Source: Escherichia phage VpaE1_ev78. Taken from it: a stretch of 64,000 bases of DNA. The stretch's first letter is position 1. Each line of letters begins with the position of its first letter. A program made the position numbers and the translations under genes. The notes below the pieces were generated by a model. It made no database searches and was not told where the DNA came from. It saw only the letters and a program-made list of their open reading frames with translations. This document shows, piece after piece, positions 24,372 through 42,623 of the stretch. The stretch is taken from sequence record LR597663. The stretch is one strand, 5' to 3'.

Positions 24372-24743
24372 ATGAAAAACAGAACAAACAAAGGCCAGTT
24401 TAAAAAAGGCCAATCTGGAAACCCATCTGGAAGACCAAAAGGCTCTCGTAACAAAAGTTCACTTGTAAAAGCTCAACTGACCATTGATAATTCTGCTGAG
24501 TTTGCTGCAAAGTTGTTTGAAGCGATTGTTACAAGGGACGCTGCTAAGCTTGCAGAGTTCGGTTTGACGACTGACGATGTAAACCTGAAGTCGATGATGG
24601 AAGCTGGTAAAACTATCATGACTCACTCAGCAGGTGAGATGAAAGCGATTGCAGCAGACACTAAGAAGACACCTGATAATGGTGGTCAGTCTCAGGCAGA
24701 TAACAAACCAACGTTCTCTGCTGTAGCGACTCTCAAAAAATAA
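24372..24743 (+). CDS. Hypothetical protein with N-terminal GNPSGRPKG motif
   Basis: 123 aa; FKKGQSGNPSGRPKGSRNKS near N-terminus. Confidence 0.45.
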   Translation: MKNRTNKGQFKKGQSGNPSGRPKGSRNKSSLVKAQLTIDNSAEFAAKLFEAIVTRDAAKLAEFGLTTDDVNLKSMMEAGKTIMTHSAGEMKAIAADTKKTPDNGGQSQADNKPTFSAVATLKK

Positions 24744-24755
24744 TTTTAAAAGGTG

Positions 24756-24785
24756 TTGACAGACTCTACAAAGTTGCTCTAAAGT
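24756..24785 (+). promoter_or_regulatory. Sigma70-like promoter (TTGACA-18-TAAAGT)
   Basis: Consensus -35 and TAAAGT -10 upstream of the vWA gene. Confidence 0.5.
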
Positions 24786-24824
24786 CTGTCACATCAAACA
24801 ACAAATGAGAGAAGAGAGTAAAAT

Positions 24825-26240
24825 ATGAGCGAATTATTTAAACATGCGCACCTTCATGCAGGTCGAACTGAAAATGGTGCTGTAAACCATACTTCATCAA
24901 TGTCTGCTCTTGTGGACTTTTATAAAGCTGCTGGTTCAAGCCGTAGCAATGTAGAAGTCTTACCAGACCTGTTCTACAAAGCTTTGCGTGAGGATGTTGA
25001 TGTTGCAGTTCGTATTTTGCTTCATATGCGAGATGTACGAGAAGGTATGGGTGAGCGTAAAGCCTTCAGAACTGTTTTGCTTCAAGCGATTGAAGACAAA
25101 GTTTTAGAGCCTGTACAGGTTCTTCGCATTATGGATAAGATTGCAGAACTTGGTCGTTTTGATGACTTCAAAATCTTCGTAGGTACTCGTTTCGAGACAG
25201 ATGCCTTCAAACATTTAGAAGCAGCATTACTAGACCCTGCAACAGCAGGTTTGGCAGCCAAGTGGCTACCACGAGTCAAACCACGTCATAAGCAGTTTGT
25301 AAAACGTTTCTGCAAGTTTGCCAACTTGAGTGAGAAAGAGTACCGCACACTGTTGTCTGCACTATCTGATACAGTTGAGCAAAAAATCTCTGCTAATGAG
25401 TTTGGTAAGATTGACTACAGTAAGATTCCTTCTCTTGCTGCTGCACGTTACCAAAAGCTGTTTAACCGTAAAGATGGAGAGCGTTACAAAGCTTACATCG
25501 AGTCCTTATCAAAGGGTGAGGCTAAGATTAATGCTGGTGCTGTTTACCCATACGATGTGATTAAATCTGTCAAGCATGGTAATGCAGATGTTGCTAATGA
25601 GCAGTGGAAAGCACTACCAAACTGGATGGCAGAAGGTGAAAACATCTTATGTATGACTGATGTTTCAAGCTCAATGTCTTGGGTGAATTTTGGCTCCATT
25701 ACTGCTCTTGATATTGGTGTATCACTTGCCTTGTATGTAGCAGAACGCAATACAGGTTGCTTTAAGGATGAGTTGATGGTTTATTCAACAAACCCTCACT
25801 TCATCGAACTGAGTGGTGATTTACGAAACCGTCATCGTCAGGTGATGCGACACGTTGAATATGGCTCAACCAACTTACAAGCAGCTTTTGACCGCATTCT
25901 TGAGATAGGTAAGAGAAACAACTTGACTCAGGAAGATATGCCAAGTAAGCTTATCATCTTCTCCGATATGGAGTTCAATCAGGTTGATGGAGCTAACGGT
26001 CGTACAAACTTTGAAGCAATTCAGAGCAAGTACAAGAAAGCTGGATATGAGATGCCACAACTGGTATTCTGGTACTTAGCAAACCGTAATGGTACTTGCG
26101 AAGTGTCTGTTAAGGATAACGGTGTAGCAATGGTATCTGGTTTCTCTCCAGCCACTTTAAAAGCTCTGCTTGGTGGTGAGAAGTTTGACCCAATCAGCGT
26201 AATGCTCAAAGCAGTAATGATTGACCGCTATATCTGGTAA
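24825..26240 (+). CDS. vWA-domain protein with helical N-terminal domain (possible TROVE/Ro60-like architecture, unverified)
   Basis: 471 aa; C-terminal about 190 aa has MIDAS-like D-x-S-x-S (MTDVSSSMS) and later acidic motif FSDMEFNQ typical of von Willebrand A domains. Confidence 0.5.
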   Translation: MSELFKHAHLHAGRTENGAVNHTSSMSALVDFYKAAGSSRSNVEVLPDLFYKALREDVDVAVRILLHMRDVREGMGERKAFRTVLLQAIEDKVLEPVQVLRIMDKIAELGRFDDFKIFVGTRFETDAFKHLEAALLDPATAGLAAKWLPRVKPRHKQFVKRFCKFANLSEKEYRTLLSALSDTVEQKISANEFGKIDYSKIPSLAAARYQKLFNRKDGERYKAYIESLSKGEAKINAGAVYPYDVIKSVKHGNADVANEQWKALPNWMAEGENILCMTDVSSSMSWVNFGSITALDIGVSLALYVAERNTGCFKDELMVYSTNPHFIELSGDLRNRHRQVMRHVEYGSTNLQAAFDRILEIGKRNNLTQEDMPSKLIIFSDMEFNQVDGANGRTNFEAIQSKYKKAGYEMPQLVFWYLANRNGTCEVSVKDNGVAMVSGFSPATLKALLGGEKFDPISVMLKAVMIDRYIW

Positions 26241-26258
26241 AAAGTTTTAAAAAGGGTA

Positions 26259-26287
26259 TTGACAATGTGTTTAATACCCTTTAATAT
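26259..26287 (+). promoter_or_regulatory. Sigma70-like promoter (TTGACA-17-TAATAT) ahead of tRNA array
   Basis: Consensus hexamers; embedded in an 8 bp inverted repeat agggtatt/aataccct. Confidence 0.55.
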
Positions 26288-26349
26288 GTTCTACATAGAA
26301 ACGAAATGAGAGCTTTTCTAAGATACTGAAAAATATTTTAAAAAAGTTC

Positions 26350-26379
26350 TTGACAATCACTAAAAAATAATGTTAAAGT
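26350..26379 (+). promoter_or_regulatory. Sigma70-like promoter (TTGACA-18-TAAAGT) ahead of first tRNA
   Basis: Consensus -35 and TAAAGT -10 about 25 nt upstream of tRNA at 26406. Confidence 0.55.
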
Positions 26380-26405
26380 GGTTACATAGAGTTTGAAAAG
26401 TTTAT

Positions 26406-26482
26406 CTCTGTTTAGCTCAGCTTGGTAGAGCGTTCCGTTTGGGGCGGTAAGGCCGGAGGTTCAAGTCCTCCAACAGAGACCA
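26406..26482 (+). tRNA. tRNA-Pro (anticodon TGG), CCA encoded
   Basis: 7 bp acceptor ctctgtt/aacagag, D-loop with GG, T-arm ggagg-ttcaagt-cctcc; hand-folded. Confidence 0.55.
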
Positions 26483-26489
26483 AATTAAT

Positions 26490-26567
26490 GTTCCAGTAGA
26501 CAAAATGGTAAAGTCACCACTCTTTCAAAGTGGATATCTGAGGGTTCAAATCCCTTCTGGAACGCCA
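26490..26567 (+). tRNA. tRNA-Glu (TTC)
   Basis: Acceptor gttccag/ctggaac, anticodon stem ccact/agtgg with loop ctTTCaa, T-loop ttcaaat, CCA encoded. Confidence 0.6.
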
Positions 26568-26574
26568 GTTTTGA

Positions 26575-26648
26575 CAGAAGACCAATTGCAGCAAACTTAA
26601 TCTTATTCATCTGAAGGTAAATCGGACAAAGAAGAGATTTGGTCTGGT
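26575..26648 (+). repeat. Inverted-repeat-bracketed element, copy 1 (cagaagacca ... tggtctgg)
   Basis: Conserved 5' end cagaagacc(a/g)..t.cagcaa and 3' end ggtctgg shared by four elements; ends are mutually complementary. Confidence 0.55.
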
Positions 26649-26658
26649 CATTAAGAAT

Positions 26659-26735
26659 TGCGGGTATAGAGAAAGGGCGTCTCACATGTCTCATTAGCAT
26701 GGTATCGGCAGGTTCGACTCCTGCACCCGCCTCCA
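26659..26735 (+). tRNA. tRNA with CAT anticodon (Met/Ile2/initiator type); acceptor register uncertain
   Basis: D-stem gaga/tctc, anticodon stem catgt/gcatg with loop ctCATta, T-arm gcagg-ttcgact-cctgc; 1-72 appears mismatched. Confidence 0.4.
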
Positions 26736-26741
26736 AATTTA

Positions 26742-26806
26742 CAGAAGACCGTTTACAGCAATATTTATTAAATTTTTAGCGGAAAAAATTGAAAGATACG
26801 GTCTGG
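26742..26806 (+). repeat. Inverted-repeat-bracketed element, copy 2
   Basis: 5' acagaagaccgtttacagcaa identical to copy 4; 3' cggtctggtaa. Confidence 0.55.
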
Positions 26807-26819
26807 TAACACTAAACAT

Positions 26820-26896
26820 GGTTAGGAAGCACATAAGGTATGTGCGGTCGCCTGTTAAGCGAATGGCACAGGGTTCGAATCCCTGACTAACCGCCA
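26820..26896 (+). tRNA. tRNA-Asn (GTT)
   Basis: D-stem gcac/gtgc, anticodon loop ctGTTaa, T-arm caggg-ttcgaat-ccctg, CCA encoded. Confidence 0.55.
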
Positions 26897-26905
26897 AATT
26901 TAAAT

Positions 26906-26993
26906 GTGTCGTTATCCCGTAGATGGTAGCGGTGGGGACTGTAAATCCCTTGTCATTGAGACTCGGTAGGTTCGACTCCTACACGGCACACCA
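26906..26993 (+). tRNA. tRNA-Tyr (GTA), long variable arm
   Basis: Acceptor gtgtcgt/acggcac, anticodon loop ctGTAaa, 88 nt with extra arm, T-arm gtagg-ttcgact-cctac, CCA encoded. Confidence 0.6.
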
Positions 26994-26998
26994 ATAAA

Positions 26999-27076
26999 GG
27001 TTATGTAGTTTAATTTGGTTAAAATACTCCCCTGTCACGGGAGATGATGAGGGTTCAAATCCCTTCGTAACCGCCA
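26999..27076 (+). tRNA. tRNA-Asp (GTC)
   Basis: Acceptor ggttatg/cgtaacc, anticodon stem ctccc/gggag with loop ctGTCac, T-loop ttcaaat, CCA encoded. Confidence 0.65.
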
Positions 27077-27137
27077 ATTTTGAGAGGGCTATTTAGCCCC
27101 TCCCTTAAAGAGTTCTTACGAGTATTCTTTAAAGGAG

Positions 27138-27211
27138 CAGAAGACCAAATACAGCAAGTTATTTAAAATTTCAAGCCAATTTAATTTTGAAAAATTTAAA
27201 ACTTGGTCTGG
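27138..27211 (+). repeat. Inverted-repeat-bracketed element, copy 3
   Basis: cagaagaccaaatacagcaag ... cttggtctgg. Confidence 0.5.
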
Positions 27212-27224
27212 CTCAACAAATTTA

Positions 27225-27355
27225 CAGAAGACCGTTTACAGCAAAACTTAACAATCTATTTCTCCGGTAAAGAAAAGGCGAAGGTTCGATTCCTTCACTC
27301 GGCAGATGTCGAGTTGGTGTAATGGTAGTACTTAAGATGATAAACAACGGTCTGG
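27225..27355 (+). ncRNA. Inverted-repeat-bracketed element, copy 4, carrying tRNA-like fragments (candidate structured ncRNA or decayed tRNA)
   Basis: Same conserved ends as copy 2; interior has a T-arm gaagg-ttcgatt-ccttc (27280-27296), a 7 bp hairpin (27297-27314) and a D-arm-like tggtgtaatggtagtac, but no anticodon arm. Confidence 0.4.
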
Positions 27356-27504
27356 TAATTATCTTTGTAGATAAGTTATTAAGCTTACCTGTGAGTATGC
27401 GACCACAAAGGGTGAAAGGGTAAATTCTAGATTTAAACCCAAAAAGGCACATCGCTACAGACCTTAAGCAAGTCTGGGTAGCTTATCTACAAAGATAATT
27501 TAAT

Positions 27505-27580
27505 GGAAGTGTAGCAGAATGGTGATGCGGCAGACTTTTAATCTGACAGGCGATGGGTTCGAATCCCTCCACTTCTACCA
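27505..27580 (+). tRNA. tRNA-Lys (TTT)
   Basis: Acceptor ggaagtg/cacttct, anticodon loop ctTTTaa, T-loop ttcgaat, CCA encoded; T-stem appears short. Confidence 0.5.
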
Positions 27581-27584
27581 ATAT

Positions 27585-27661
27585 GGTTCAGTCGCAGATA
27601 AGGTAATGCAAGGGTCTCATAAGCCCTATGAATGTGGGTTCGATTCCCATCTGAACCTCCA
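27585..27661 (+). tRNA. tRNA-Met (CAT)
   Basis: Acceptor ggttcag/ctgaacc, anticodon stem agggt/gccct with loop ctCATaa, T-arm gtggg-ttcgatt-cccat, CCA encoded. Confidence 0.6.
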
Positions 27662-27662
27662 A

Positions 27663-27738
27663 GCTGGTATAGTTAAGAAGGTTATAACACTCCCCTGATA
27701 AGGGAACATCGGTGGTTCGATTCCACCTACCAGTACCA
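27663..27738 (+). tRNA. tRNA-Ile (GAT)
   Basis: Acceptor gctggta/taccagt, D-stem gtta/taac, anticodon loop ctGATaa, T-arm ggtgg-ttcgatt-ccacc, CCA encoded. Confidence 0.65.
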
Positions 27739-27753
27739 ATTTCAATAAAGTTG

Positions 27754-27782
27754 TTGACATTGAGATGTGACTACTTTATAGT
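27754..27782 (+). promoter_or_regulatory. Sigma70-like promoter (TTGACA-17-TATAGT) inside tRNA region
   Basis: Consensus -35, 17 nt spacer, TATAGT -10. Confidence 0.55.
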
Positions 27783-27986
27783 AACCTTAGTTTTCGTTGC
27801 GTAGCGTCTATTTTGCAAATTTAAAATAAATGCAAACGACAATGTTTTTCTGGCAGTAGCTTGATAGGCTAAACACCAGTGAGGTCTTCCAATCCCTCAT
27901 CAAAGAATTTGGCGTACTCGCCCACGGTATGATTAATAAGGTGGGCATCTTTAAGGGCTTTCTAAGAGAGTCTTTAAAGATAATTA

Positions 27987-28068
27987 CGGGGCGTATCTCA
28001 GCGGTCTTCTAAACCGCCGTTAACCGAGTAAGTGGAGTATGCGGGTTCGAGTCCTGCCGCCTCGACCA
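27987..28068 (+). tRNA. Atypical tRNA-like gene (no clear D-arm; anticodon-type loop ctTCTaa); identity unresolved
   Basis: Acceptor cggggcg/cgcctcg, T-arm gcggg-ttcgagt-cctgc and CCA present; only one perfect 5 bp stem-loop in the body, 23 nt between it and the T-arm. Confidence 0.3.
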
Positions 28069-28082
28069 ATTTTGGAGAAATC

Positions 28083-28430
28083 ATGAAAACTTGTATTAGG
28101 TGCAAACTTAGCAAGGATGAAAATGATTTCTACATGAAAGATGGTAGGAGAACTCATTCATACTGTAAAAAGTGTGTTAATGAGCAAACCATAGAAAGAC
28201 AAAGAGCACTTAAACTCTCAGCTATTGAGTACAAAGGTGGGGTTTGTCACGATTGTGGTAAAAAGTATCATCCAGCAGTGTATGACTTCCATCATTTGAA
28301 TCCTTCAGAGAAAGATTTTAACATTGGTCATAGGAAAAGCCTTAAGTTCTCTCAAGAACTAAAAGATGAACTTGACAAATGTGTTTTGCTATGTTCAAAT
28401 TGCCATAGGGTAAGACATGCAAAGTATTAG
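28083..28430 (+). CDS. HNH endonuclease with N-terminal zinc finger
   Basis: Start at ATG (MKTCIRCK) with GGAG RBS; CxxC...CxxC then DFHHLNP...LLCSNCHRVRH (HNH motif); track start 28032 lies in the upstream tRNA. Confidence 0.6.
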   Translation: MKTCIRCKLSKDENDFYMKDGRRTHSYCKKCVNEQTIERQRALKLSAIEYKGGVCHDCGKKYHPAVYDFHHLNPSEKDFNIGHRKSLKFSQELKDELDKCVLLCSNCHRVRHAKY

Positions 28431-28658: not shown

Positions 28659-29063
28659 ATGAAACTTTGTAGAAAATGTTCTCAAGAAAAGCCTTTAAGC
28701 TGCTTTCATAAAAGAGGTAATGGCTATCAGTCTGCTTGCAAAGATTGTAAAGCTAAGTACTCAGCAAAGAGATACAAAGAAGACCCTACTTATAAAGCAA
28801 AAAGAAAAGTTAGGGCAAAATATGACAAAAAGAGGAACAGAGAGTTCCTTAGTAGATATAAAAAGTTTTGCAAATGCAGAATATGTGGCGAATCTGAGCC
28901 AGTAGCTTTGGATTTTCATCACTTAGACCCTAAAGAGAAAGATTTTGCTCCAAGCAATCTTAAAACTTACTCTAGGGGCACTATTAAGCGTGAAGTCCGT
29001 AAGTGTGTTGTGCTTTGTTCAAACTGTCATAGGAAAGTTCATGAAGGACTGTTAAGTATTTAA
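28659..29063 (+). CDS. HNH endonuclease with N-terminal zinc finger (paralog of 28083-28430)
   Basis: 134 aa; CRKCSQEK...CKDC zinc finger and DFHHLDPKEKDF...VLCSNCHRKVH HNH motif. Confidence 0.6.
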   Translation: MKLCRKCSQEKPLSCFHKRGNGYQSACKDCKAKYSAKRYKEDPTYKAKRKVRAKYDKKRNREFLSRYKKFCKCRICGESEPVALDFHHLDPKEKDFAPSNLKTYSRGTIKREVRKCVVLCSNCHRKVHEGLLSI

Positions 29064-29827: not shown

Positions 29828-29924
29828 ATTTAGAGGTCAAGTGAAAGACCGCTTTGAGTCAACTGAAGACCGTAACAAATTCCACGGAGTTGAGTTAGCG
29901 GCACAACTCCAGACCTCTTCTCAC

Positions 29925-30178: not shown

Positions 30179-30736
30179 ATGAGATATTTGAAGTATGCTT
30201 CATGGATTTTCTTAGCTTTGTTAGAACCATTTGCAGCAATCTTAGCAGTTATCTTAGCACCTTTTGTAGTTCCATTCTACAGTGAGAAGAAAGGACACTT
30301 ACCTTTCGGGTTCAGATGGATGGAGACATATGACAACCCAATTGATGGTGATGAAGGTCACGTTAAAAGATGGGCTAATATTAGATGGATTGGTAAACTA
30401 GGTGTCTACATGCAAAGAGTCGGATGGCTCTGGAGAAACAAAGCTTATAACTTCTCTTACCATGTGTTAGGAAGAGATGTAAAAGATGTTACTAAGTGGA
30501 AAGGTAATATCAACGTAAGTTCTAACCCTGAAGATAATCAGACAGGTTATCTCCTAATGTGGAACAGTAATGCTTGGGGATTATTCGCTTTTACCCCATC
30601 AATTAAAATCTTTGGTAAACAGTTTTACTGGAGAATTTATATTGGGTGGAAGCTAAAAAGTGTTGTCCCAGAAGAAAGAGCATTCTCAAGGGAAAGAGTT
30701 ATGTTGGCATTCTTTATTCATCCACTAAGAAAGTAA
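30179..30736 (+). CDS. Hypothetical membrane protein embedded in tRNA array
   Basis: 185 aa; AAGAGG RBS; hydrophobic N-terminus WIFLALLEPFAAILAVILAPFVVPF; Trp-rich. Confidence 0.5.
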   Translation: MRYLKYASWIFLALLEPFAAILAVILAPFVVPFYSEKKGHLPFGFRWMETYDNPIDGDEGHVKRWANIRWIGKLGVYMQRVGWLWRNKAYNFSYHVLGRDVKDVTKWKGNINVSSNPEDNQTGYLLMWNSNAWGLFAFTPSIKIFGKQFYWRIYIGWKLKSVVPEERAFSRERVMLAFFIHPLRK

Positions 30737-30744
30737 AGATTTAA

Positions 30745-30820
30745 AGGGGATTAGTTTACAAGGTTAAAACCTCGGTCTTTGAAATCGAAGAAGTTGGTTC
30801 AATTCCAACATCCCCCGCCA
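30745..30820 (+). tRNA. tRNA-Gln (TTG)
   Basis: Acceptor aggggat/atccccc with 1-72 mismatch, anticodon loop ctTTGaa, T-arm gttgg-ttcaatt-ccaac, CCA encoded. Confidence 0.5.
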
Positions 30821-30822
30821 AT

Positions 30823-30901
30823 GCTCCATTACTCCAATTGGCAGAGAGGCCAGACTTAAAATCTGTGTTATGTATCGGTTCGAATCCGATATGGAGTACC
30901 A
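30823..30901 (+). tRNA. tRNA with anticodon TAA (Leu-type), atypical fold
   Basis: Acceptor gctccat/atggagt, 4 bp anticodon stem with loop ctTAAaa, T-arm atcgg-ttcgaat-ccgat, CCA encoded; 8 nt variable region. Confidence 0.4.
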
Positions 30902-30905
30902 AATT

Positions 30906-30981
30906 TAGCGGTATAGCATAACTGGCAATGCAGCAGCCTCTGAAGCTGTCCTATTAAGGTTCAAATCCTTATGCCGCTGCC
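30906..30981 (+). tRNA. tRNA-Gln (CTG)
   Basis: Acceptor agcggta/tgccgct, anticodon stem gcagc/gctgt with loop ctCTGaa, T-loop ttcaaat, CCA encoded. Confidence 0.5.
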
Positions 30982-31012
30982 ACTTCTAAGGATTCTTACG
31001 AGAGTCCTTAAA

Positions 31013-31088
31013 TGTGGCCTTATCATAAATGGTAATGACCCATGCTGTGAACATGGTCTATACGGGTTCAAATCCCGTAGGTCACCCC
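31013..31088 (+). tRNA. tRNA-His (GTG)
   Basis: Acceptor gtggcct/aggtcac, D-stem tcat/atga, perfect anticodon stem ccatg/catgg with loop ctGTGaa, discriminator C, CCA encoded. Confidence 0.65.
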
Positions 31089-31092
31089 AATT

Positions 31093-31168
31093 TATAGTCC
31101 AAGTAGCTTATATGGTTAAAGCGCGTGTCTGAAAAACATGAGAAGAGGGTTCAAATCCCACTGGACTA
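31093..31168 (+). tRNA. tRNA-Phe (GAA)
   Basis: Perfect 7 bp acceptor tagtcca/tggacta, anticodon stem cgtgt/acatg with loop ctGAAaa, T-loop ttcaaat. Confidence 0.6.
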
Positions 31169-31187
31169 CCAATTTCAAAGGTGCTTA

Positions 31188-31922
31188 ATGAAAGAGATGA
31201 CAGAACAAGGTAAGGAGATTTTTAATCTCTTAAAAACCGGTAAAGGGTTCTCTAACCCACTTATTACTGGTGCAGCAGTTCTCGGTGGAACCGTAGCTGC
31301 TTCTACATCACTTGTAAGCTCTATTAGTTCTGTAACAGACCCTACAATGAAGGAGAAACTTGTTGCTGCTGGACTTACAACAGTCCTTCTAAACAGCTTT
31401 ACAACAAGCCTTACAAGCACTACAGCAACTACTAAAACTCTGACAGACTACGGTCAAAAGTCTATTGATGAGTTTTCATCACGTATGCAGGTAGCAAAGG
31501 GGTATTCCAATGTTATGGGTGCAGCAGGAGAACAAGTTGGTTGTACACCATTCAGTGGTATCATGGGTGTTGCTACAGAGTATGGTCAAAAAGCTATTGA
31601 CATGATGAACAGTACACTAGATAGTGTTAATGGTGTGTTAAGTGACTTGCAAGATGCTATTGATAAGGGTCTTGATACTGTTTCTGATTTAGCTAATCAG
31701 GCTGTTAGTAAGATTAATGAAGGTATTTCAAAGATTACAGCTTATGCAGATGAAGTTGTGCAGATGATTGAAGAAGAAGCTGCCCTTATTGCAGAGTACC
31801 TTAAAACGAATATCAATGGGTTCTTAGCAGGTATCTTACCAGACTGGTTTGATGATGCCTGTAAAACTGGTGTGATTGACACTATTGCAACACCAGAAAT
31901 GAAGAGCGCATTACAGAAATAA
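31188..31922 (+). CDS. Hypothetical Ser/Thr-rich protein
   Basis: Start at internal ATG (MKEMTEQ) with AAAGGTG RBS, because track start 31125 lies inside tRNA-Phe. Confidence 0.45.
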   Translation: MKEMTEQGKEIFNLLKTGKGFSNPLITGAAVLGGTVAASTSLVSSISSVTDPTMKEKLVAAGLTTVLLNSFTTSLTSTTATTKTLTDYGQKSIDEFSSRMQVAKGYSNVMGAAGEQVGCTPFSGIMGVATEYGQKAIDMMNSTLDSVNGVLSDLQDAIDKGLDTVSDLANQAVSKINEGISKITAYADEVVQMIEEEAALIAEYLKTNINGFLAGILPDWFDDACKTGVIDTIATPEMKSALQK

Positions 31923-31924
31923 AT

Positions 31925-32017
31925 GGAAGATTAACCCTAAAAGGTAAGGGAGCAGTTTGCTAAACTGCCAGTAGCTGAGAAATCGGTGTACCAGTTCAAG
32001 TCTGGTATCTTCCTCCA
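31925..32017 (+). tRNA. tRNA-Ser (GCT), long variable arm
   Basis: Acceptor ggaagat/atcttcc, anticodon stem gcagt/actgc with loop ttGCTaa, 93 nt with extra arm, CCA encoded. Confidence 0.65.
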
Positions 32018-32021
32018 ATTT

Positions 32022-32097
32022 GAATCCGTGACAGAAATGGCTATGTGCCTGTCTGCAAAACAGGTTTATAAGGGTTCGAGTCCCTTCGGATTCTCCA
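32022..32097 (+). tRNA. tRNA-Cys (GCA)
   Basis: Acceptor gaatccg/cggattc, anticodon stem cctgt/acagg with loop ctGCAaa, T-arm aaggg-ttcgagt-ccctt, CCA encoded. Confidence 0.65.
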
Positions 32098-32262
32098 AGT
32101 TATTTTACTCTCTCTCAATTAAAATAATAATAATGCCCTGCTATAAGTATTCTTCCTTTCGCTACCGAAGAGTATTTTTAGACAGGGCTTTTTTACAGAG
32201 TTATACTTTATAAGAAGGCTTATACAGTATGTCTCTGACGTACATTGTGGTTTCTCCTTGAC

Positions 32263-32292
32263 GGTCTCTGTGCCGTCTTTTTTAAGGAGAAA
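32263..32292 (+). terminator. Rho-independent terminator closing the tRNA unit
   Basis: gacggtctc-tgt-gccgtc followed by TTTTTTAA, just upstream of the structural operon RBS. Confidence 0.55.
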
Positions 32293-32319
32293 CATGGTTA
32301 ATTATTTGGAGAAAACATA

Positions 32320-32520
32320 ATGAGTGAGACCGTTTATAAAGAACTTTATGAAGCTAATAAGAAGCTAGAATTTATGCAGAATACTATCATGGCAATTGCA
32401 GACAGATTGTCTGTAGCAACAGGTATTGATATTAAAGAAGCATCTATGGATGCACTTCTTGATGCTGTTGATGCAAAGTTCGAAGTTAAGAAAGAAGAGA
32501 CTGCTACAGACTCTGAATAA
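32320..32520 (+). CDS. Small protein upstream of large terminase
   Basis: 66 aa ORF with GGAGA RBS; too small to call a small terminase with confidence. Confidence 0.4.
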   Translation: MSETVYKELYEANKKLEFMQNTIMAIADRLSVATGIDIKEASMDALLDAVDAKFEVKKEETATDSE

Positions 32521-32541
32521 TTCTATTTGCGGAGGCGCTTA

Positions 32542-34143
32542 ATGGACTTAAATGCTGTTAAGCAGAAGCGAGTGGAAGATGTTAGGAAAGTCCTAGCTGG
32601 AGAGTTGGGGCTTTCTGATGAAGTAAAAGAAATTATCAAATCATTCGGTAAAGACCCCTCTAAATTCCTTCCAACTCAAATTCTGACTTTATTAAGATAC
32701 ACACCAGACCAAGTTCGCCTTATCTTTAAATTGATGACTGATAAGAACTATGTAGCCCCTCAACCGGGTTCTCAAGAGGTCTTTTTAAATACTAATGCTG
32801 ACTTGGTTCTTTATGGTGGTGCTGCTGGTGCTGGTAAAACTGCTGCATTGTTAATGGACTCTTTAAGATTTATTGAAGACCCTAACTATAATGCTGTATA
32901 TTTCCGTCGAAATACAACACAGTTACAAGGTGGTTTATGGCCTGCTGCAAAGAAACTATTTGGTAAGTTTGGTGGGATTCCTCACGAGCAGAAGATGACT
33001 ATCACATTCCCTTCTGGGGCAACTATCAAGTTTACCTACCTAGAACTTGAAAAGCACGCTGAAGGTCATCAGGGTATTGAATACTCAGCTATTTACTTTG
33101 ACGAAGGTACACACTTCTCTGCTTCACAGATTTCATACCTACAAACCCGTCTACGTTCTGGTGCTGAAGGCGATTCATACATGAAGATTTCCATGAACCC
33201 AGACAGAGACCATTTTATTTATGATTGGGTAGAACCATTCTTAGATGAAGAAGGTTATCCAGACCCTGAAAAGTGTGGTCGTATTCGTTGGTATGTAATG
33301 AATGATGGTGTGATGGTTTCTGATTGGGAGAGAGACAAGATTCTTGAAATGTTCCCTCTTGAGATTCCTCAAACATACACCTTTATCTCTGGTACGATTG
33401 ATGATAACCCAATCCTTGACTTCTTAGAGCCTAAGTACCGTGGTAAGTTGGAAAACAACACCCCTGTAAACGTTGCAAGACTTCGTTTCGGTAACTGGAA
33501 GGCTCGTGCAGAAGGTTCAAACTATTGGCAAAGACAATGGTGTGAAATTGTTGATTCACTCCCAGAAGATGTATTTGATGTTAGAGCATGGGACTTAGCA
33601 GCAACTTTACCATCTGAGATTAACCCTAATCCAGACTGGACAGCAGGTGTTAAGATGGGTAAATCTAAAAAAGACGGTTGCTATTATATCATTGATGTAG
33701 TAAGATTTAGAGATAGACCCTCTGGAGTCGAAACACAAATTAATTTGACTGCTGAAAGTGACGGTAAGCGAACTGGTATTTTTATCCCTCAAGACCCAGG
33801 CGCTGCTGGTAAATCCTACGCAACATCCCTCATCAGGAAACTTGCCGAGAAAGGCTATCGTGCAAGAGCTAAACCAACAAATAAAGATAAAGTTACCCGA
33901 TTTGCGGGGTTTTCTGCTGCTTCTGAAGCTGGACTTGTAAAAGTCTTGAGAGGTAGTTGGAACGAAGCTTACTTCCAAGAACTTGAAGGCTTTTGTGGTG
34001 ATGGTAAAACTAAAGATGACCAAGTGGATGCTACCAGTGATGCTTTCAACAGTCTTAACGAAGTTAAATTATTCAAGCCACCATCAATGGGTGCTCACAC
34101 AGACTTAGTGAGAGGAAACCCATATGAGGGGCTTAGACGTTGA
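32542..34143 (+). CDS. Terminase large subunit
   Basis: About 533 aa from ATG after GGAGG RBS (track used TTG at 32527); Walker A-like GGAAGAGKT; first gene of head operon. Confidence 0.6.
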   Translation: MDLNAVKQKRVEDVRKVLAGELGLSDEVKEIIKSFGKDPSKFLPTQILTLLRYTPDQVRLIFKLMTDKNYVAPQPGSQEVFLNTNADLVLYGGAAGAGKTAALLMDSLRFIEDPNYNAVYFRRNTTQLQGGLWPAAKKLFGKFGGIPHEQKMTITFPSGATIKFTYLELEKHAEGHQGIEYSAIYFDEGTHFSASQISYLQTRLRSGAEGDSYMKISMNPDRDHFIYDWVEPFLDEEGYPDPEKCGRIRWYVMNDGVMVSDWERDKILEMFPLEIPQTYTFISGTIDDNPILDFLEPKYRGKLENNTPVNVARLRFGNWKARAEGSNYWQRQWCEIVDSLPEDVFDVRAWDLAATLPSEINPNPDWTAGVKMGKSKKDGCYYIIDVVRFRDRPSGVETQINLTAESDGKRTGIFIPQDPGAAGKSYATSLIRKLAEKGYRARAKPTNKDKVTRFAGFSAASEAGLVKVLRGSWNEAYFQELEGFCGDGKTKDDQVDATSDAFNSLNEVKLFKPPSMGAHTDLVRGNPYEGLRR

Positions 34144-40696: not shown

Positions 40697-41270
40697 AAAA
40701 GGTCTAGTTAGAACCTTAGTGGATGTTATTGGTCACAGATTAGCTCGTGATAAAAATAATAGACCAAACGTAATTAGAGCTTACCCTTCTGATAACTCAA
40801 ATGACAAAGGTTTAAAACCTGACCAGCCATTTATTACCGTATATTGTCAAGATGCTGCAACACCTTATGGTTGGGTTCTTGATAAGTTTGTTGAAGATGA
40901 TGTAGTTTGTTACAGAATCGCTTTTCAGATTCCTGTATTGATTACGGTAAATGGTAAAGGTGCTCACAGTATTATGCTTGAGCTTAAACAAAGATTAGAG
41001 ATGAGTTCAGTCAGAGATTTAATCCTTGAAGAAACAGGAGCTACAGTATTAGACACTGGAGCAATCCCTAACGATTACACTTATCTCAATACAGATTTCG
41101 AAAATTCTGCGCCTCTTGTTGTAACTCTTGTAAAAAACTCAGTCCTGAAAGATGAACGTGGAAGTATTATTGAGCGTGTCATTGTTGATGGTGAGTTGGT
41201 TTATGAAGAAGGGCAAGAGCCACCAGAATATACTATCCATCTAGATGTAGACTCCAAAGGGGTAAAATAA
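40671..41270 (+). CDS. Tail completion/terminator protein (positional)
   Basis: 199 aa ORF immediately upstream of sheath-like gene. Confidence 0.35.
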   Translation: MQLETAELEKGLVRTLVDVIGHRLARDKNNRPNVIRAYPSDNSNDKGLKPDQPFITVYCQDAATPYGWVLDKFVEDDVVCYRIAFQIPVLITVNGKGAHSIMLELKQRLEMSSVRDLILEETGATVLDTGAIPNDYTYLNTDFENSAPLVVTLVKNSVLKDERGSIIERVIVDGELVYEEGQEPPEYTIHLDVDSKGVK

Positions 41271-42623
41271 ATGTGGAATCCAATTGTTAATGTAGGTATT
41301 ACATTGAACACCGCAGGAACTACAAGAGAAGGTTTTGGTTTGCCACTATTCTTAGCTTCAACAGATAACTTTGAAGAAAGAGTGCGTGGTTATACTTCCT
41401 TAACTGAAGTTGCTGAAGATTTCGATGAGAATACTGCTGCATATAAGGCTGCTAAACAACTTTGGAGTCAGACTCCTAAAGTAACTCAGCTTTATATTGG
41501 TAGACGCGCTATGCAGTACACTGTATCAATTCCTGATGAGGTTACTGAGAGCACGGACTACTCAATTACTGTAGCTGTCGGTGGGGGAATGTCACAACCA
41601 TTCCAGTACACCTCACAAGGTGAAGATACTGCCGAGAATGTATTACAACAGTTTAAAACACAGATTGAAGCTGACCAATCAATTAAAGATAAAGTTTCAG
41701 TCAATGTTACTGGTAGCAACGGTTCTGCCACAATGGTCATCTCCAAAGCTGGTGACAATGATTTCGTGAAGGTAACCACTACAGCACAAACTGTGTCTAT
41801 TGCAAGCACAACTGCTGATACAGCGTCAACTGCTCTGGCAGCTATTGAAGCTTATTCTACCGACTGGTATTTCATTGCAGCAGAAGGCAGAACTCAACAG
41901 TTTGTTTTGGCAATGGCTTCTGAGATTCAGGCTCGTAAGAAAATCTTCTTCACAGCTAACTCTGATGTAGCAGCACTGCAAGGTACAGAATTAAATAGTG
42001 CAAATGATGTTCCAGCACAGCTTGCTAAGAGTATGTATACTCGCACAGTTTGCTTGTGGCATCACACAGCGGCAGAAGATTATCCAGAGATGGCATATAT
42101 TGCTTATGGCGCTCCATACGATGCAGGGTCAATTGCTTGGGGTAATGCTCAGTTGACTGGTGTAGCTGCTTCTTTACAGCCAGCTAATAAGAGACCTCTG
42201 ACAAGCATTCAGAAGTCAGCTTTAGATGTACGTCACTGTAACTTTATCGACCTTGATGGTGGTGTTCCAGTGGTTCGTAGAGGGATTACTTCTGGTGGGG
42301 AATGGATTGATATCGTCCGTGGTGTTGACTGGTTAGAATCAGACCTGAAAACTTCTCTGAGAGACTTGCTAATTAACCAGAAGGGTGGTAAGATTACTTA
42401 TGATGATACTGGTATTACCCGTATTCGTCAAGTCATTGAAACCTCTCTACAAAGAGCAGTCAACAGAAACTTCCTGTCATCTTACACAGTTAATGTTCCT
42501 AAAGCCTCTCAAGTTGCTTTGGCAGACAAGAAAGCTCGTATCCTGAAAGATGTTACCTTCGCAGGTATCTTAGCAGGGGCTATCTTGGATGTTGACTTGA
42601 AAGGTACAGTGGCTTACGAATAA
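41271..42623 (+). CDS. Tail sheath-like protein
   Basis: 450 aa followed by a 148 aa tube-sized gene, chaperone pair and tape measure: the sheath-tube order of contractile tails. Confidence 0.45.
   Translation: MWNPIVNVGITLNTAGTTREGFGLPLFLASTDNFEERVRGYTSLTEVAEDFDENTAAYKAAKQLWSQTPKVTQLYIGRRAMQYTVSIPDEVTESTDYSITVAVGGGMSQPFQYTSQGEDTAENVLQQFKTQIEADQSIKDKVSVNVTGSNGSATMVISKAGDNDFVKVTTTAQTVSIASTTADTASTALAAIEAYSTDWYFIAAEGRTQQFVLAMASEIQARKKIFFTANSDVAALQGTELNSANDVPAQLAKSMYTRTVCLWHHTAAEDYPEMAYIAYGAPYDAGSIAWGNAQLTGVAASLQPANKRPLTSIQKSALDVRHCNFIDLDGGVPVVRRGITSGGEWIDIVRGVDWLESDLKTSLRDLLINQKGGKITYDDTGITRIRQVIETSLQRAVNRNFLSSYTVNVPKASQVALADKKARILKDVTFAGILAGAILDVDLKGTVAYE

What the first reader, a model, noticed from the sequence alone, without database searches (positions are those of the whole stretch)
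26575..27355. Family of inverted-repeat-bracketed elements in the tRNA array, one carrying tRNA-like fragments (candidate tRNA-mimic ncRNA)
Four elements (26575-26648, 26742-26806, 27138-27211, 27225-27355) share a conserved 5' end (cagaagacc[a/g]..t.cagcaa; copies 2 and 4 are identical over 21 nt) and a complementary 3' end (ggtctgg), with variable interiors of 40-115 nt. A fifth, minimal hairpin version sits at 27458-27477. Copy 4 contains a canonical T-arm, a 7 bp hairpin and a D-arm-like segment but no anticodon arm, so it is not a normal tRNA. Paired ends enclosing a tRNA-like module is the general architecture of bacterial Y-RNA-type tRNA mimics, and a vWA-domain protein is encoded just upstream. 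Alternatively these are decayed tRNA genes invaded by a small mobile palindromic element.
Basis: partly seen in the sequence, partly recalled or inferred. Interest (0 to 1): 0.7.

Follow-up and report, generated by a model that had tools for sequence, protein, structure and literature searches.

The report
Phage Y RNAs beside Ro60 gene
Five small structured RNA genes at the head of this Felix O1-like phage's tRNA cluster, one of them a tRNA mimic, are most likely the "Y RNA" partners of the Ro60-like protein encoded just upstream. That protein is 97% identical to one shown experimentally in phage Bas63 to counter a bacterial anti-phage defence.

Summary
The window is a Felixounavirus. The "vWA protein" upstream (24825-26240) is a Ro60 homolog by predicted fold. 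It is 97% identical to Bas63 gp130, a published counter of the ppl defence.

Four elements (26572-26650, 26739-26809, 27135-27214, 27222-27358) share one module:
- a 4-bp outer helix;
- an AGA loop opposite a bulged G;
- a 7-8-bp inner helix;
- an unpaired UNCAGCAA motif.

A fifth RNA (27357-27500) carries a minimal version of the module inside a 22-bp terminal stem.

Element 4 adds a V stem, a T arm, a 7-bp acceptor-like hairpin and a D arm. This is the YrlA tRNA-mimic layout.

A covariance model built from it recovers relatives next to Ro-homolog genes in distant phages, including a mycobacteriophage. In that alignment 97.7% of pair positions (one sequence at one base pair) form standard pairs, and 22 of 26 pairs show compensatory changes. 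A motif-and-helix pattern scan finds the module within 700 nt of the gene, on the same strand, in 44 of 65 distant viral loci, against 1 locus on the opposite strand. Phage T5's tRNA region lacks it.

Rfam's YrlA model matches relatives only below threshold and does not match the window copy. The published Ro-binding motif is absent. I file this as a new variant of a known kind. Expression and binding are untested.

The parts
24756..24785 (+). Sigma-70-like promoter match upstream of the Ro60-homolog gene
   Evidence: TTGACA-18-TAAAGT, 10 of 12. This is a consensus match only.
24825..26240 (+). Ro60 homolog gene (471 aa; alpha-helical repeat ring plus vWA domain with a DxSxS MIDAS motif). Ortholog of Bas63 gp130.
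   Evidence: Pfam DUF2828 + DUF7788. AlphaFold model pLDDT 88.2. Top 11 Foldseek PDB hits are all Ro60/Rsr/phiLo Ro60. D279, S281, S283, T349 and D381 are invariant in 36 homologs. 97% identical to bas63_0130. No sequence-level hit to Ro60 or TROVE.
26259..26379 (+). Two tandem sigma-70-like promoters (26259-26287 and 26350-26379) that would drive the tRNA / Y-like RNA precursor
   Evidence: TTGACA-17-TAATAT and TTGACA-18-TAAAGT with a TG extension. They lie in a duplicated 28-nt block (D6). No terminator-like site was found between them and 27500 on the + strand.
26572..26650 (+). Y-like RNA 1 (short), in the spacer between tRNA-Glu and tRNA-Met
   Evidence: Outer helix TGAC/GTCA, AGA loop opposite bulged G, inner helix AGACCAA/TTGGTCT, then TTGCAGCAA. 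Model R1 scores 45.2 bits, E 8e-6. Conserved in all Felixounavirus loci, with two alternative interiors.
26739..26809 (+). Y-like RNA 2 (short), in the spacer between tRNA-Met and tRNA-Asn
   Evidence: Outer helix TTAC/GTAA, inner helix AGACCGT/ACGGTCT, then TTACAGCAA. R1 scores 56.9 bits, E 4e-8. In relatives the outer helix changes to TTGC/GCAA.
27135..27214 (+). Y-like RNA 3 (short), with an AT-rich interior hairpin
   Evidence: Outer helix GAGC/GCTC, inner helix AGACCAA/TTGGTCT, then ATACAGCAA. Fold energy -12.3 kcal/mol, z -2.0. The window copy is missed by R1 with default filters; its Bas63 homolog scores 24.8 bits.
27222..27358 (+). Y-like RNA 4, the YrlA-type tRNA mimic. Outer helix 27222-27225/27355-27358. 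AGA loop 27226-27228. Inner helix 27229-27236/27346-27353. Bulged G 27354. TACAGCAA 27237-27244. V stem-loop 27259-27275. T arm 27280-27296. Acceptor-like hairpin 27297-27314. U8-G9 27315-27316. D arm 27317-27331.
   Evidence: Sequence. RNAalifold consensus on 10 homologs recovers all five helices, 15 of 26 pairs compensatory. R1 scores 136 bits. The acceptor-like stem covaries between lineages: ACTCGGC/GTCGAGT, ACCCTTC/GAAGGGT, CGCTCCCA/TGGGAGTG, TTCCCCG/CGGGGAA.
27357..27500 (+). Y-like RNA 5. A 22-bp terminal stem (27357-27378 / 27479-27500) encloses small hairpins and the minimal module 27454-27482: CAGAC - CUUAAGCAA loop - GUCUG, bulged G(s), GCUA/UAGC.
   Evidence: Inverted repeat I1, 95% complementary. 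MFE -48.3 kcal/mol, z -7.2. In SUSP-like relatives both the terminal stem and the minimal hairpin (AAACC/GGTTT, loop CTTTAGCAA) keep pairing through changes on both sides; 7 of 32 pairs are compensatory, but only two lineages were compared.
26406..27738 (+). Nine flanking tRNA genes (Pro, Glu, Met, Asn, Tyr, Asp, Lys, Met, Ile), whose processing would release the spacer RNAs
   Evidence: ARAGORN and Rfam tRNA.

Best explanation
These are five phage-encoded Y RNAs: non-coding partner RNAs of the Ro60-like protein encoded immediately upstream.

Proposed course of events:
1. Inferred. The RNAs are transcribed with the tRNAs from the two promoters at 26259-26379, as one precursor.
2. Inferred. RNase P and the 3'-end tRNA-processing nucleases cut out the tRNAs. 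That liberates the spacers, whose paired ends protect them from exonucleases.
3. Inferred from co-occurrence and from analogy to Ro60/Y RNA. The shared module is the docking site for the Ro60 homolog. The module consists of the outer helix, the AGA loop opposite a bulged G, the inner helix beginning AG and ending CU, and the unpaired UNCAGCAA.
4. The anatomy is shown; the partner is inferred. The variable interiors are effector modules. RNA 4 presents a tRNA-shaped domain (T arm, 7-bp acceptor-like stem, D arm) in which the anticodon arm is replaced by the Ro-binding stem, as in bacterial YrlA. This domain would recruit a tRNA-recognising or RNA-decay enzyme. Host PNPase is the precedent, in Deinococcus and in Thermus phage phiLo.

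The resulting RNP would reshape RNA decay or RNA quality control during infection and contribute to the protein's anti-defence role.
For: Protein:
- Ro60 fold.
- 97% identical to Bas63 gp130. The PhageMaP preprint reports that gp130 is Ro60-like and counters the ppl defence (10.1101/2024.10.10.617714).

RNA anatomy:
- Four full modules and one minimal module lie within 930 nt, all on the gene's strand.
- RNAalifold independently predicts the outer helix, inner helix, T arm, acceptor-like stem and D arm.

Covariation, on 62 distinct matches to model R1:
- 97.7% of pair positions form standard pairs, against 70.2% after shuffling and 32-43% when partners are slid.
- 22 of 26 pairs change on both sides.
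- Covariation score 0.38 against 0.10, reached by 0 of 500 shuffles.

Conserved unpaired signature:
- U23, C25, G27, C28 and A29 are invariant in 62 of 62; the bulged G in 59 of 62.

Association with the gene:
- 136 of 137 R1 matches are on the gene's strand.
- Full-length matches lie next to Ro homologs only 39-47% identical: L073, L019, L028, L036, L080, L020.
- The module lies within 700 nt of the gene on the same strand in 44 of 65 distant loci, against 1 locus on the opposite strand.
- Three tandem modules follow the Ro-like gene of mycobacteriophage Kingsolomon.
- Three tandem modules precede the gene in Listeria phage AG20.

Negative control: T5's 40-kb tRNA region gives no full-length match; best 18 bits.

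Link to the known family: relatives' tRNA-like domains match Rfam YrlA over its full length, at 28-40 bits and E down to 9e-8.

Layout: it agrees with the published description of YrlA (PMC4201824).
Against: - There are no expression, processing or binding data for these RNAs anywhere.
- The window's own copy 4 gets no Rfam YrlA match even at E <= 10, and no relative reaches the 69-bit gathering score.
- The published Ro-binding motifs are absent from the stem. Neither GNCGAAN0-1G nor GGUCCGA is found there. The only GGCGAAG in copy 4 lies in the T stem and is not conserved in relatives.
- Bas63 gp130 alone, expressed from a plasmid or from the T7 genome, restores plaquing on ppl hosts. The phage RNAs are therefore not required for that phenotype.
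- The tRNA-like member is missing in relatives whose protein is 63-64% identical (L082, L087). It is half deleted in L008. So it is dispensable.
- The covariation counts come from an alignment fitted to the model, and the pattern-scan hits were selected for pairing.
Confidence: 0.75

Rival explanations
1. The stems are cis-acting punctuation of the tRNA operon. They would be processing, stability or attenuation hairpins that help mature the polycistronic tRNA precursor. They would have no relation to the Ro homolog and no function as free RNAs.
For: All five lie in inter-tRNA spacers, a few nucleotides after a tRNA 3' end. No terminator-like site separates them from the tRNAs. Other spacers of the same array also form closed stems, for example 29828-29924.
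Against: The same module occurs next to the Ro-homolog gene where no tRNA is adjacent, as in mycobacteriophage Kingsolomon, where the nearest tRNA lies about 2.7 kb upstream. In Listeria phage AG20 it sits between a promoter and the gene. It lies within 700 nt of the gene in 44 of 65 distant loci. It is absent from T5's tRNA region and from the remaining 4.5 kb of this phage's own array. A processing hairpin would not need an invariant unpaired UNCAGCAA or a complete T arm / acceptor stem / D arm domain.
Confidence: 0.08
2. The module is a protein-binding operator that regulates the Ro homolog rather than working with it: an autoregulatory leader or decoy. The protein would bind the module to repress its own translation, or the tandem copies would titrate the protein.
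For: In many distant loci a short module ends directly at the ribosome-binding site of the Ro-homolog gene (...CUGaaagga...CUGaggaga). In Listeria phage AG20 three copies sit in the gene's leader. gp130 works without the phage RNAs against ppl.
Against: In this window the modules lie downstream of the gene and behind their own promoters, so they cannot act on its translation in cis. Copy 4's conserved tRNA-like domain has no role in such a scheme. Bacterial Y RNAs are likewise co-transcribed with rsr yet act in trans (PMC4201824). This reading still requires the protein to bind the module, so it overlaps the best explanation.
Confidence: 0.1
3. One reading: these are decayed or rearranged tRNA genes (or a 3' half plus a 5' half of neighbouring tRNAs) invaded by a small mobile palindromic element. 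They would have no function.
For: The T-arm-then-D-arm order is what the junction of two tandem tRNA genes gives; Chen et al. flag this as a false-positive source. One relative shows recombination between the T arm of copy 4 and the T arm of tRNA-Lys (L008).
Against: The positions are syntenic across Felixounavirus and relatives whose protein is 52-64% identical. All helices, including the acceptor-like stem, are kept by compensatory changes. The module is on one strand only and occurs nowhere else in the 64 kb. No target-site duplications are evident from reading the flanks. The unpaired motif is invariant from mycobacteriophages to coliphages.
Confidence: 0.02
4. Copy 4 is a circularly permuted or split tRNA gene. 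After cleavage in the acceptor-like loop, and perhaps ligation, it would yield a functional or decoy tRNA.
For: The order is 3' half then 5' half. The 7-bp acceptor-like stem plus the 5-bp T stem form a minimal RNase P substrate. M. smegmatis YrlA is cleaved there and receives CCA (PMC4201824).
Against: There is no anticodon stem-loop. The region between the D arm and the terminal stem is an A-rich strand (27332-27345). No bulge-helix-bulge motif was seen on reading the sequence, and bacteria are not known to have the splicing endonuclease needed for permuted tRNAs (background knowledge). RNase P cleavage would be compatible with the Y RNA reading rather than an alternative to it.
Confidence: 0.05

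Closest known systems
YrlA (Rfam RF02553), the tRNA-mimicking bacterial Y RNA bound by the Ro60 ortholog Rsr (Chen et al. 2014, PMC4201824). Also reported in mycobacteriophages with annotated TROVE proteins.
   Same: Encoded beside a Ro60 homolog on the same strand. Terminal stem formed by the 5' and 3' ends. Interior ordered V stem, T arm, acceptor-like stem-loop, D arm, with no anticodon arm. Accompanied by shorter Y RNAs. The tRNA-like domains of relatives align over the full length of the Rfam model.
   Different: The Ro-binding part differs: AG-helix / UNCAGCAA / CU-bulged G instead of GNCGAAN0-1G. No copy reaches the Rfam gathering score, and the window copy is not detected at all. The partner protein belongs to Pfam DUF2828/DUF7788, not TROVE. 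The genes are embedded in a tRNA array. Five copies.
YrlB and other short bacterial Y RNAs (Salmonella, M. smegmatis, D. radiodurans Yrn2)
   Same: Short stem-loop RNAs sharing only the presumed Ro-binding stem with the tRNA-like member, encoded in tandem with it.
   Different: Copies 1-3 and 5 have unrelated interiors and a different conserved motif. Their existence as RNAs is untested.
Yrl1/Yrl2 of Thermus phage phiLo with phage Ro60 (PMC12135203; PDB 9KOP, 9L5Y)
   Same: Phage-encoded Ro60 homolog with adjacent predicted Y-like RNAs. That protein's structures are among the best fold matches of this protein. That study shows RNA binding and a ternary complex with host PNPase in vitro.
   Different: The phiLo RNAs were picked by a CGAA motif in an internal bulge and lie upstream of the gene. 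No tRNA-like domain and no tRNA array are described there.
Bas63 gp130 (PhageMaP preprint, 10.1101/2024.10.10.617714)
   Same: The same protein (97% identity) in the same locus. [quoted passage not shown]
   Different: No Y RNA was identified there. The candidates found here are not the annotated tRNAs but the spacers between them. In the Bas63 record, two minus-strand 'hypothetical protein' CDS (bas63_0137 and bas63_0138) cover part of this stretch: copy 3, copy 4 and part of RNA 5.
Stable small RNAs of the phage T5 tRNA region (RNA1, RNA2, RNA3, RNAI, RNAIII, RNAIV; annotated 'stable RNA with unknown functions', some 'tRNA-like')
   Same: Non-tRNA RNAs encoded between the tRNA genes of a large lytic coliphage.
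   Different: No sequence or structure match to the present model (best 18 bits, partial). No Ro homolog is annotated in the 40 kb of T5 examined.
Metazoan Y RNAs (Rfam RF00019)
   Same: Ends pair into a stem with a bulge that binds Ro60, with a variable effector loop and several paralogs per genome (background knowledge; PMC4201824).
   Different: No sequence similarity. No Rfam match.

Membership tests
Y RNA (functional class: non-coding RNA partner of a Ro60-family protein) | Encoded adjacent to, and on the same strand as, a Ro60 ortholog | tested here: met
   The gene at 24825-26240 has a Ro60 fold. The elements start 332 nt downstream on the same strand. The same adjacency holds in 44 of 65 distant loci.
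Y RNA (functional class: non-coding RNA partner of a Ro60-family protein) | The 5' and 3' ends pair into a stem interrupted by a bulge or internal loop | tested here: met
   Outer helix 4 bp, AGA loop opposite a bulged G, inner helix 7-8 bp. 96.9% and 98.6% of pair positions are paired, and 10 of 11 pairs have changes on both sides.
Y RNA (functional class: non-coding RNA partner of a Ro60-family protein) | Physically bound by the Ro60 protein; accumulates as a stable RNA | not testable with these tools
   No transcriptome or binding data for any Felixounavirus were found.
Y RNA (functional class: non-coding RNA partner of a Ro60-family protein) | Published Ro-binding sequence in the stem (GGUCCGA in animals and Deinococcus; GNCGAAN0-1G in YrlA/YrlB) | tested here: not met
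   The stem 5' strand reads CAGAAGACC. The conserved motif is UNCAGCAA. The single GGCGAAG of copy 4 lies in the T stem and is not conserved.
YrlA (Rfam RF02553) | tRNA-like domain ordered (V), T arm, acceptor-like stem-loop, D arm, with no anticodon arm | tested here: met
   Copy 4, 27259-27331. RNAalifold consensus with compensatory pairs in the T, acceptor-like and D helices.
YrlA (Rfam RF02553) | Score at or above the Rfam gathering threshold (69 bits) | tested here: not met
   Window copy 4: no match at E <= 10. Relatives score 28-39.6 bits over the full model length, E 9e-8 to 0.07. The hit in a mycobacteriophage shows that the library holds the model.
YrlA (Rfam RF02553) | tRNA-type modifications (dihydrouridine, pseudouridine); recognition by RNase P or the CCA-adding enzyme | not testable with these tools
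   Only the sequence prerequisites can be seen, by reading: U8, A14, G18-G19, A21, a UUCGAUU T loop, and a 7-bp acceptor-like stem.
Ro60 / TROVE protein family (for the upstream gene) | Helical-repeat ring followed by a vWA domain with a MIDAS motif | tested here: met
   The model is all-helical over residues 28-263, followed by an alpha/beta vWA domain. TM-score 0.47-0.66 to Ro60 chains over about 515-555 aligned columns. DxSxS...T...D is invariant.
Ro60 / TROVE protein family (for the upstream gene) | Sequence-level match to Pfam TROVE or to solved Ro60 sequences | tested here: not met
   Pfam gives DUF2828, DUF7788 and a weak VWA_2 only. phmmer and a 36-sequence profile find no Ro60 chain in the PDB at E <= 10.
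tRNA | Complete cloverleaf with an anticodon arm | tested here: not met
   ARAGORN makes no call in 27077-27504. The Rfam tRNA model gives 22.0-22.6 bits, partial, below its 29-bit threshold.

The most novel reading that the evidence does not exclude
The module (AG-helix, unpaired UNCAGCAA, CU plus a bulged G) is the cognate RNA ligand of the whole DUF2828/DUF7788 clade of phage Ro60 homologs. It would define a pan-phage Y RNA superfamily spanning myco-, Listeria, Vibrio-type and enterobacterial phages, one that current Rfam models miss.

In Felixounaviruses the Ro/Y RNP, matured by the host's tRNA-processing machinery, would be an anti-defence device. The tRNA-shaped member would tether a host nuclease or tRNA-handling enzyme, or act as a tRNA decoy, to blunt defences such as ppl.
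Probability: 0.25. Interest if true: 0.8.

Novelty: new variant of a known kind. Interest (0 to 1): 0.6.

Why it matters
Bas63 gp130 is one of the few phage Ro60 homologs with a demonstrated phenotype: it counters the ppl defence and transfers that protection to T7. Its RNA partners were only guessed to be "some tRNA genes".

This analysis names five concrete candidate RNAs with exact boundaries. It also gives a conserved docking module with testable nucleotides (ACAGCAA and the bulged G), and a tRNA-mimic member. Binding, processing and genetic tests can therefore be designed directly.

The analysis also suggests that a large clade of phage Ro60-like proteins comes with its own Y RNA class, which existing covariance models do not detect. 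These proteins are annotated as DUF2828, vWFA protein, hypothetical protein or "RNA-binding protein"; 709 phage records carry one.

Finally, it corrects annotation. The stretch is currently unannotated, or carries spurious minus-strand ORFs.

Tried and rejected
- Rfam at gathering threshold on the window and on 15 loci found only tRNAs. An E <= 10 search of the window region gave no Y RNA family. YrlA appeared only below threshold, and only in relatives.
- Sequence searches of the protein against the PDB, singly and as a profile, found nothing relevant. NCBIfam gave nothing. Only the fold comparison revealed Ro60.
- BLASTN of the RNA region beyond Ounavirinae returned only tRNA matches.
It was replaced by scans anchored on the motif.
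- A regular expression meant to collect copy-4 homologs failed, but it exposed the L008 deletion.
- The Listeria phage CKA15 paper reports abundant non-coding transcripts near its Ro homolog. I could not map them onto the three modules I found in the related phage AG20, so I do not count them as evidence of expression.
- The supplementary tables of Chen et al. 2014 and two Wolin-laboratory reviews are not held. I therefore could not check which phages they listed. Their text says that only genomes with annotated TROVE proteins were searched.
- The CTGAAGACC at 29863 is not a sixth copy. It has no CAGCAA motif and a different stem.
- The permuted-tRNA, mobile-palindrome and processing-hairpin readings are treated under the rival explanations.
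Full report
**What the window is.** The stretch 24500-28100 is 96-97% identical to Felix O1-like phages (Felixounavirus: Alf5, wV8, heid and others), with 314 matching phage records. The finding lies at the head of a 26-tRNA array, directly downstream of a 471-aa ORF at 24825-26240.

**Checking the observation.** It holds.
- CAGAAGACC occurs exactly at 26575, 26742, 27138 and 27225, all on the + strand.
- AGACCN5CAGCAA matches exactly only at those four places in 64 kb; with up to 1 mismatch, 7 matches are found against about 1 expected.
- Each copy ends in GGTCTGG, and the ends pair.
It is separated from the inner 7-8-bp helix by AGA on the 5' side and a single bulged G on the 3' side.
- The full elements are therefore 26572-26650, 26739-26809, 27135-27214 and 27222-27358.
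- Copy 4 contains a T arm (27280-27296), a 7-bp hairpin (27297-27314), U8-G9 and a D arm (27317-27331), preceded by a small V stem-loop (27259-27275). It has no anticodon arm.
- ARAGORN and the Rfam tRNA model do not accept copy 4 as a tRNA.
- The "fifth minimal hairpin" exists (27454-27482). It is nested in a 144-nt RNA closed by a 22-bp stem (27357-27378 / 27479-27500; MFE -48.3 kcal/mol, z -7.2).

**The upstream protein is a Ro60 homolog.**
- Pfam sees only DUF2828 + DUF7788 and a weak VWA_2 match.
- Sequence searches against the PDB find nothing.
- An AlphaFold model built on 36 homologs (pLDDT 88.2, pTM 0.88) has Ro60 chains as its 11 best Foldseek PDB matches: Xenopus Ro60, human Ro60, Deinococcus Rsr and Thermus phage phiLo Ro60. 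These align along the length of the protein (E 5e-8 to 1e-6, TM 0.47-0.66). Isolated vWA domains follow only after a 1000-fold gap in E-value.
- The MIDAS residues DxSxS...T...D are invariant.
- tblastn finds the family in 709 phage records. Homologs 31-34% identical in mycobacteriophages are annotated "Ro-like RNA binding protein".
- The protein is 97% identical to bas63_0130 of phage Bas63.
- The PhageMaP preprint reports that Bas63 gp130 resembles Ro60, counters the ppl defence, and confers this on T7 when expressed alone. [quoted passage not shown]

**The RNAs are conserved and structured.**
- All Felixounavirus loci fetched through the protein (L001-L016, L098) carry the elements at the same positions.
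- Relatives whose protein is 52-64% identical (L082-L084, L086-L092) carry them with different helix sequences that still pair. Inner helices include AGACCGT, AGACTCT, AGTGTC, AGTATC, AGAATC and AGAAGCT. Outer helices include TTAC/GTAA, TTGC/GCAA, TGAC/GTCA and TTAT/ATAA.
- The acceptor-like stem of the copy-4 class is replaced wholesale yet stays complementary: ACTCGGC/GTCGAGT, ACCCTTC/GAAGGGT, CGCTCCCA/TGGGAGTG, TTCCCCG/CGGGGAA.
- RNAalifold on ten copy-4 homologs predicted, unprompted, the outer helix, inner helix, T arm, acceptor-like stem and D arm. 15 of 26 pairs show compensatory change.
- A covariance model built from that alignment (R1) was run over 875 kb. It gave 137 matches with E <= 1, of which 136 are on the strand of the Ro-homolog gene.
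- On the 76 matches with E <= 1e-4 (62 distinct): 97.7% of pair positions form standard pairs, against 70.2% after shuffling and 32-43% with partners slid. 22 of 26 pairs change on both sides. The covariation score is 0.38 against 0.10, reached by 0 of 500 shuffles.
- That alignment is fitted to the model, so the numbers lean towards the structure. The independent RNAalifold result and the by-eye compensations do not share this bias.
- The unpaired positions are the most conserved of all. U-N-C-A-G-C-A-A follows the inner helix directly; five of its positions are invariant in 62 of 62. The helix starts with AG and ends with CU. The bulged G is present in 59 of 62.
- RNA 5 also keeps its terminal stem and its minimal hairpin through changes on both sides in SUSP-like relatives (AGAC/GTCT becomes AAACC/GGTTT; loop CTTAAGCAA becomes CTTTAGCAA). 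Only two lineages were compared.

**The module travels with the Ro-homolog gene, not with tRNAs.**
- R1 finds full-length copy-4-like RNAs directly beside the gene in metagenomic phage contigs whose protein is only 39-47% identical. Examples: L073 at 80.7 bits; L019 with three copies of 45-63 bits plus a weaker fourth match (28.6 bits, E 0.019); L028, L036, L080 and L020.
- It also finds one, at 35 bits, 96 nt after the Ro-like gene of mycobacteriophage Kingsolomon. There, reading the sequence shows three tandem elements, each a helix followed by ACAGCAA, the middle one with T arm, acceptor-like stem and D arm. That protein is also DUF2828 + DUF7788.
- A motif-anchored pattern scan (7-bp helix, 1-4 nt, C[ACU]GCA, partner strand followed by G) finds at least one hit within 700 nt of the gene on its strand in 44 of 65 distant loci: 60 sites in 89 kb. 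The opposite strand has 1 site. The remaining 396 kb has 27 sites on both strands together.
- Listeria phage AG20 has three tandem modules between a promoter and the gene.
- As a negative control, 40 kb of phage T5 holding its tRNA genes gives only partial matches of 18 bits or less at tRNA-tRNA junctions. The pattern scan finds a single chance-level hit there.

**Relation to known Y RNAs.**
- Chen et al. 2014 describe YrlA as a Ro-binding stem plus a tRNA-like domain ordered V, T, acceptor stem-loop, D. It is encoded within 4 kb of the Ro60 gene on the same strand, alongside shorter Y RNAs. M. smegmatis YrlA has a 7-bp acceptor stem, is cut by RNase P and receives CCA (PMC4201824).
- Copy 4 has precisely this anatomy.
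- Rfam's YrlA model (RF02553) is in the library. It matches, over its full length but below the 69-bit gathering score, the homologous RNAs of Kingsolomon (37.9 bits), Klebsiella phage FBKp34 (39.6 bits, E 9e-8), L019, L028 and L091.
- These are the copies with a canonical GCUCAG...GAGC D arm. The window's copy has GUGU/GUAC and is not detected.
- The alignment to the Rfam consensus shows that the tRNA-like core aligns well, while the 5' "ggCgaA" Ro-binding segment does not.
- The published motif GNCGAAN0-1G is replaced here by the AG-helix / UNCAGCAA / CU-G signature.
- Chen et al. searched only genomes annotated with a TROVE protein, so this protein clade was outside their survey.
- No paper in the searchable library links Felixounavirus to identified Y RNAs. 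The nearest statements are the Bas63 speculation and a similar speculation for Listeria phage CKA15.
- Thermus phage phiLo provides direct precedent for a phage Ro60 binding adjacent Y-like RNAs and host PNPase in vitro (PMC12135203).

**How it most likely works.**
- Shown: the anatomy, the conservation, the covariation, the linkage to a Ro60-fold gene, and the similarity of the tRNA-like domain to YrlA.
- Inferred: transcription with the tRNAs from the tandem promoters at 26259-26287 and 26350-26379, since no terminator-like site intervenes.
- Inferred: release of the spacers when RNase P and the 3'-end processing nucleases excise the flanking tRNAs. RNAs 1 and 2 each fill one inter-tRNA spacer. 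RNAs 3, 4 and 5 share the Asp-Lys spacer.
- Inferred: protection of the ends by the outer helix, and docking of the Ro homolog on the bulged stem with its adjacent single-stranded UNCAGCAA.
- Inferred: recruitment of a tRNA-recognising or RNA-decay enzyme by the tRNA-shaped domain of RNA 4, giving a RYPER-like RNP that alters RNA turnover or quality control in the infected cell.
- Possible: cleavage of RNA 4 by RNase P in the acceptor-like loop (27307/27308), because the stem is 7 bp as in M. smegmatis YrlA.

**Reasons for caution.**
- There are no expression or binding data.
- gp130 alone suffices against ppl.
- The tRNA-like member is absent from relatives whose protein is 63-64% identical (L082, L087). 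It is half deleted in one Felixounavirus contig (L008).
- In many distant phages a short module abuts the gene's ribosome-binding site, which suggests an additional or alternative autoregulatory role.

**Verdict.** These are Y RNAs of the YrlA/YrlB kind, but with a different, clade-specific docking module. They pair with a Ro60 clade that sequence profiles do not recognise, and they are embedded in a tRNA operon. That makes them a new variant of a known kind.

The finding turns a published guess about an experimentally validated anti-defence protein into specific, testable RNA candidates.

Noticed in passing
window 27754-27990 (+): The best sigma-70-like promoter of the region (27754-27782, 11 of 12) is followed by a 200-nt non-coding stretch that folds unusually well (MFE -62.5 kcal/mol, z -4.0). 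It draws weak Rfam tmRNA and permuted-tmRNA hits (16-29 bits). An atypical tRNA follows at 27987-28065, seen by Rfam (31.7 bits) but not by ARAGORN. This may be another structured RNA.
   Followed up: partly
window 27222-27452 (-): A 76-aa minus-strand ORF lies exactly on RNA 4 and RNA 5. The Bas63 record annotates two 'hypothetical protein' CDS in the same place (bas63_0137 and bas63_0138). One-nucleotide indels between close relatives break the frame, so these CDS are probably spurious.
   Followed up: partly
L008 6450-6583 (IMGVR_UViG_2706796742_000001): A natural deletion joins the T arm of RNA 4 to the T arm of tRNA-Lys. It removes the 3' half of RNA 4, RNA 5 and the 5' part of the tRNA. 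This looks like recombination between T-arm sequences, and shows these parts are dispensable.
   Followed up: no
L100 3122-3385 (Listeria phage vB_LmoM_AG20, NC_020871): Three tandem AG-helix / ACAGCAA / CUG elements sit between a TTGACA promoter and the Ro-homolog gene. An RtcB-type 'tRNA splicing ligase' gene lies 1.2 kb downstream, echoing the bacterial rsr-yrlBA-rtcBA arrangement. A paper on the related phage CKA15 found the Ro homolog in purified virions.
   Followed up: partly
L019, L022, L025, L059, L076, L081 (just upstream of position 4001): In many distant phage contigs a short module ends directly at the Shine-Dalgarno sequence of the Ro-homolog gene (...CUGaaagga...CUGaggaga). This suggests the protein may autoregulate through its own leader.
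   Followed up: no
L099 (phage T5, NC_005859, record 30284-33949 and 40848-41566): T5's tRNA region carries eight annotated 'stable RNAs with unknown functions', three of them called tRNA-like. They are unrelated to the present family by the covariance model. They show that non-tRNA RNAs in phage tRNA arrays are an old, unresolved theme.
   Followed up: partly
L086 6003-6113; L039 5895-6015 and 6025-6137; L044 7751-7868 and 8019-8136; L048 8184-8302: Rfam tRNA hits of 111-121 nt lie near Ro-homolog genes of distant phages (Klebsiella FBKp34, Aeromonas Aeh1-like). They are either tRNAs with long insertions or misread junctions. ARAGORN does not call the FBKp34 one.
   Followed up: no
window 29828-29924 (+): The spacer between tRNA-Thr and tRNA-Val is closed by AGAGGTC/GACCTCT and contains CTGAAGACC, but no CAGCAA motif. 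It is a different stem-closed spacer and not a member of the family.
   Followed up: yes
window 28083-28430 and 28659-29063 (+): Two small Cys-rich ORFs inside the tRNA array end in HNH-like motifs (CSNCHR..H). They are probably homing endonucleases, as in other phage tRNA regions. This is from reading the translations only.
   Followed up: no
L083 5606-5703; L084 5607-5681; L088 5091-5161; L090 5098-5168: Relatives whose protein is about 55% identical have an extra 500-600-nt non-coding gap between the Ro-homolog gene and the first tRNA. It contains an aberrant tRNA-like call (ARAGORN 'tRNA-???'; Rfam tRNA 30-39 bits at L083 and L084). The window lacks this gap.
   Followed up: no
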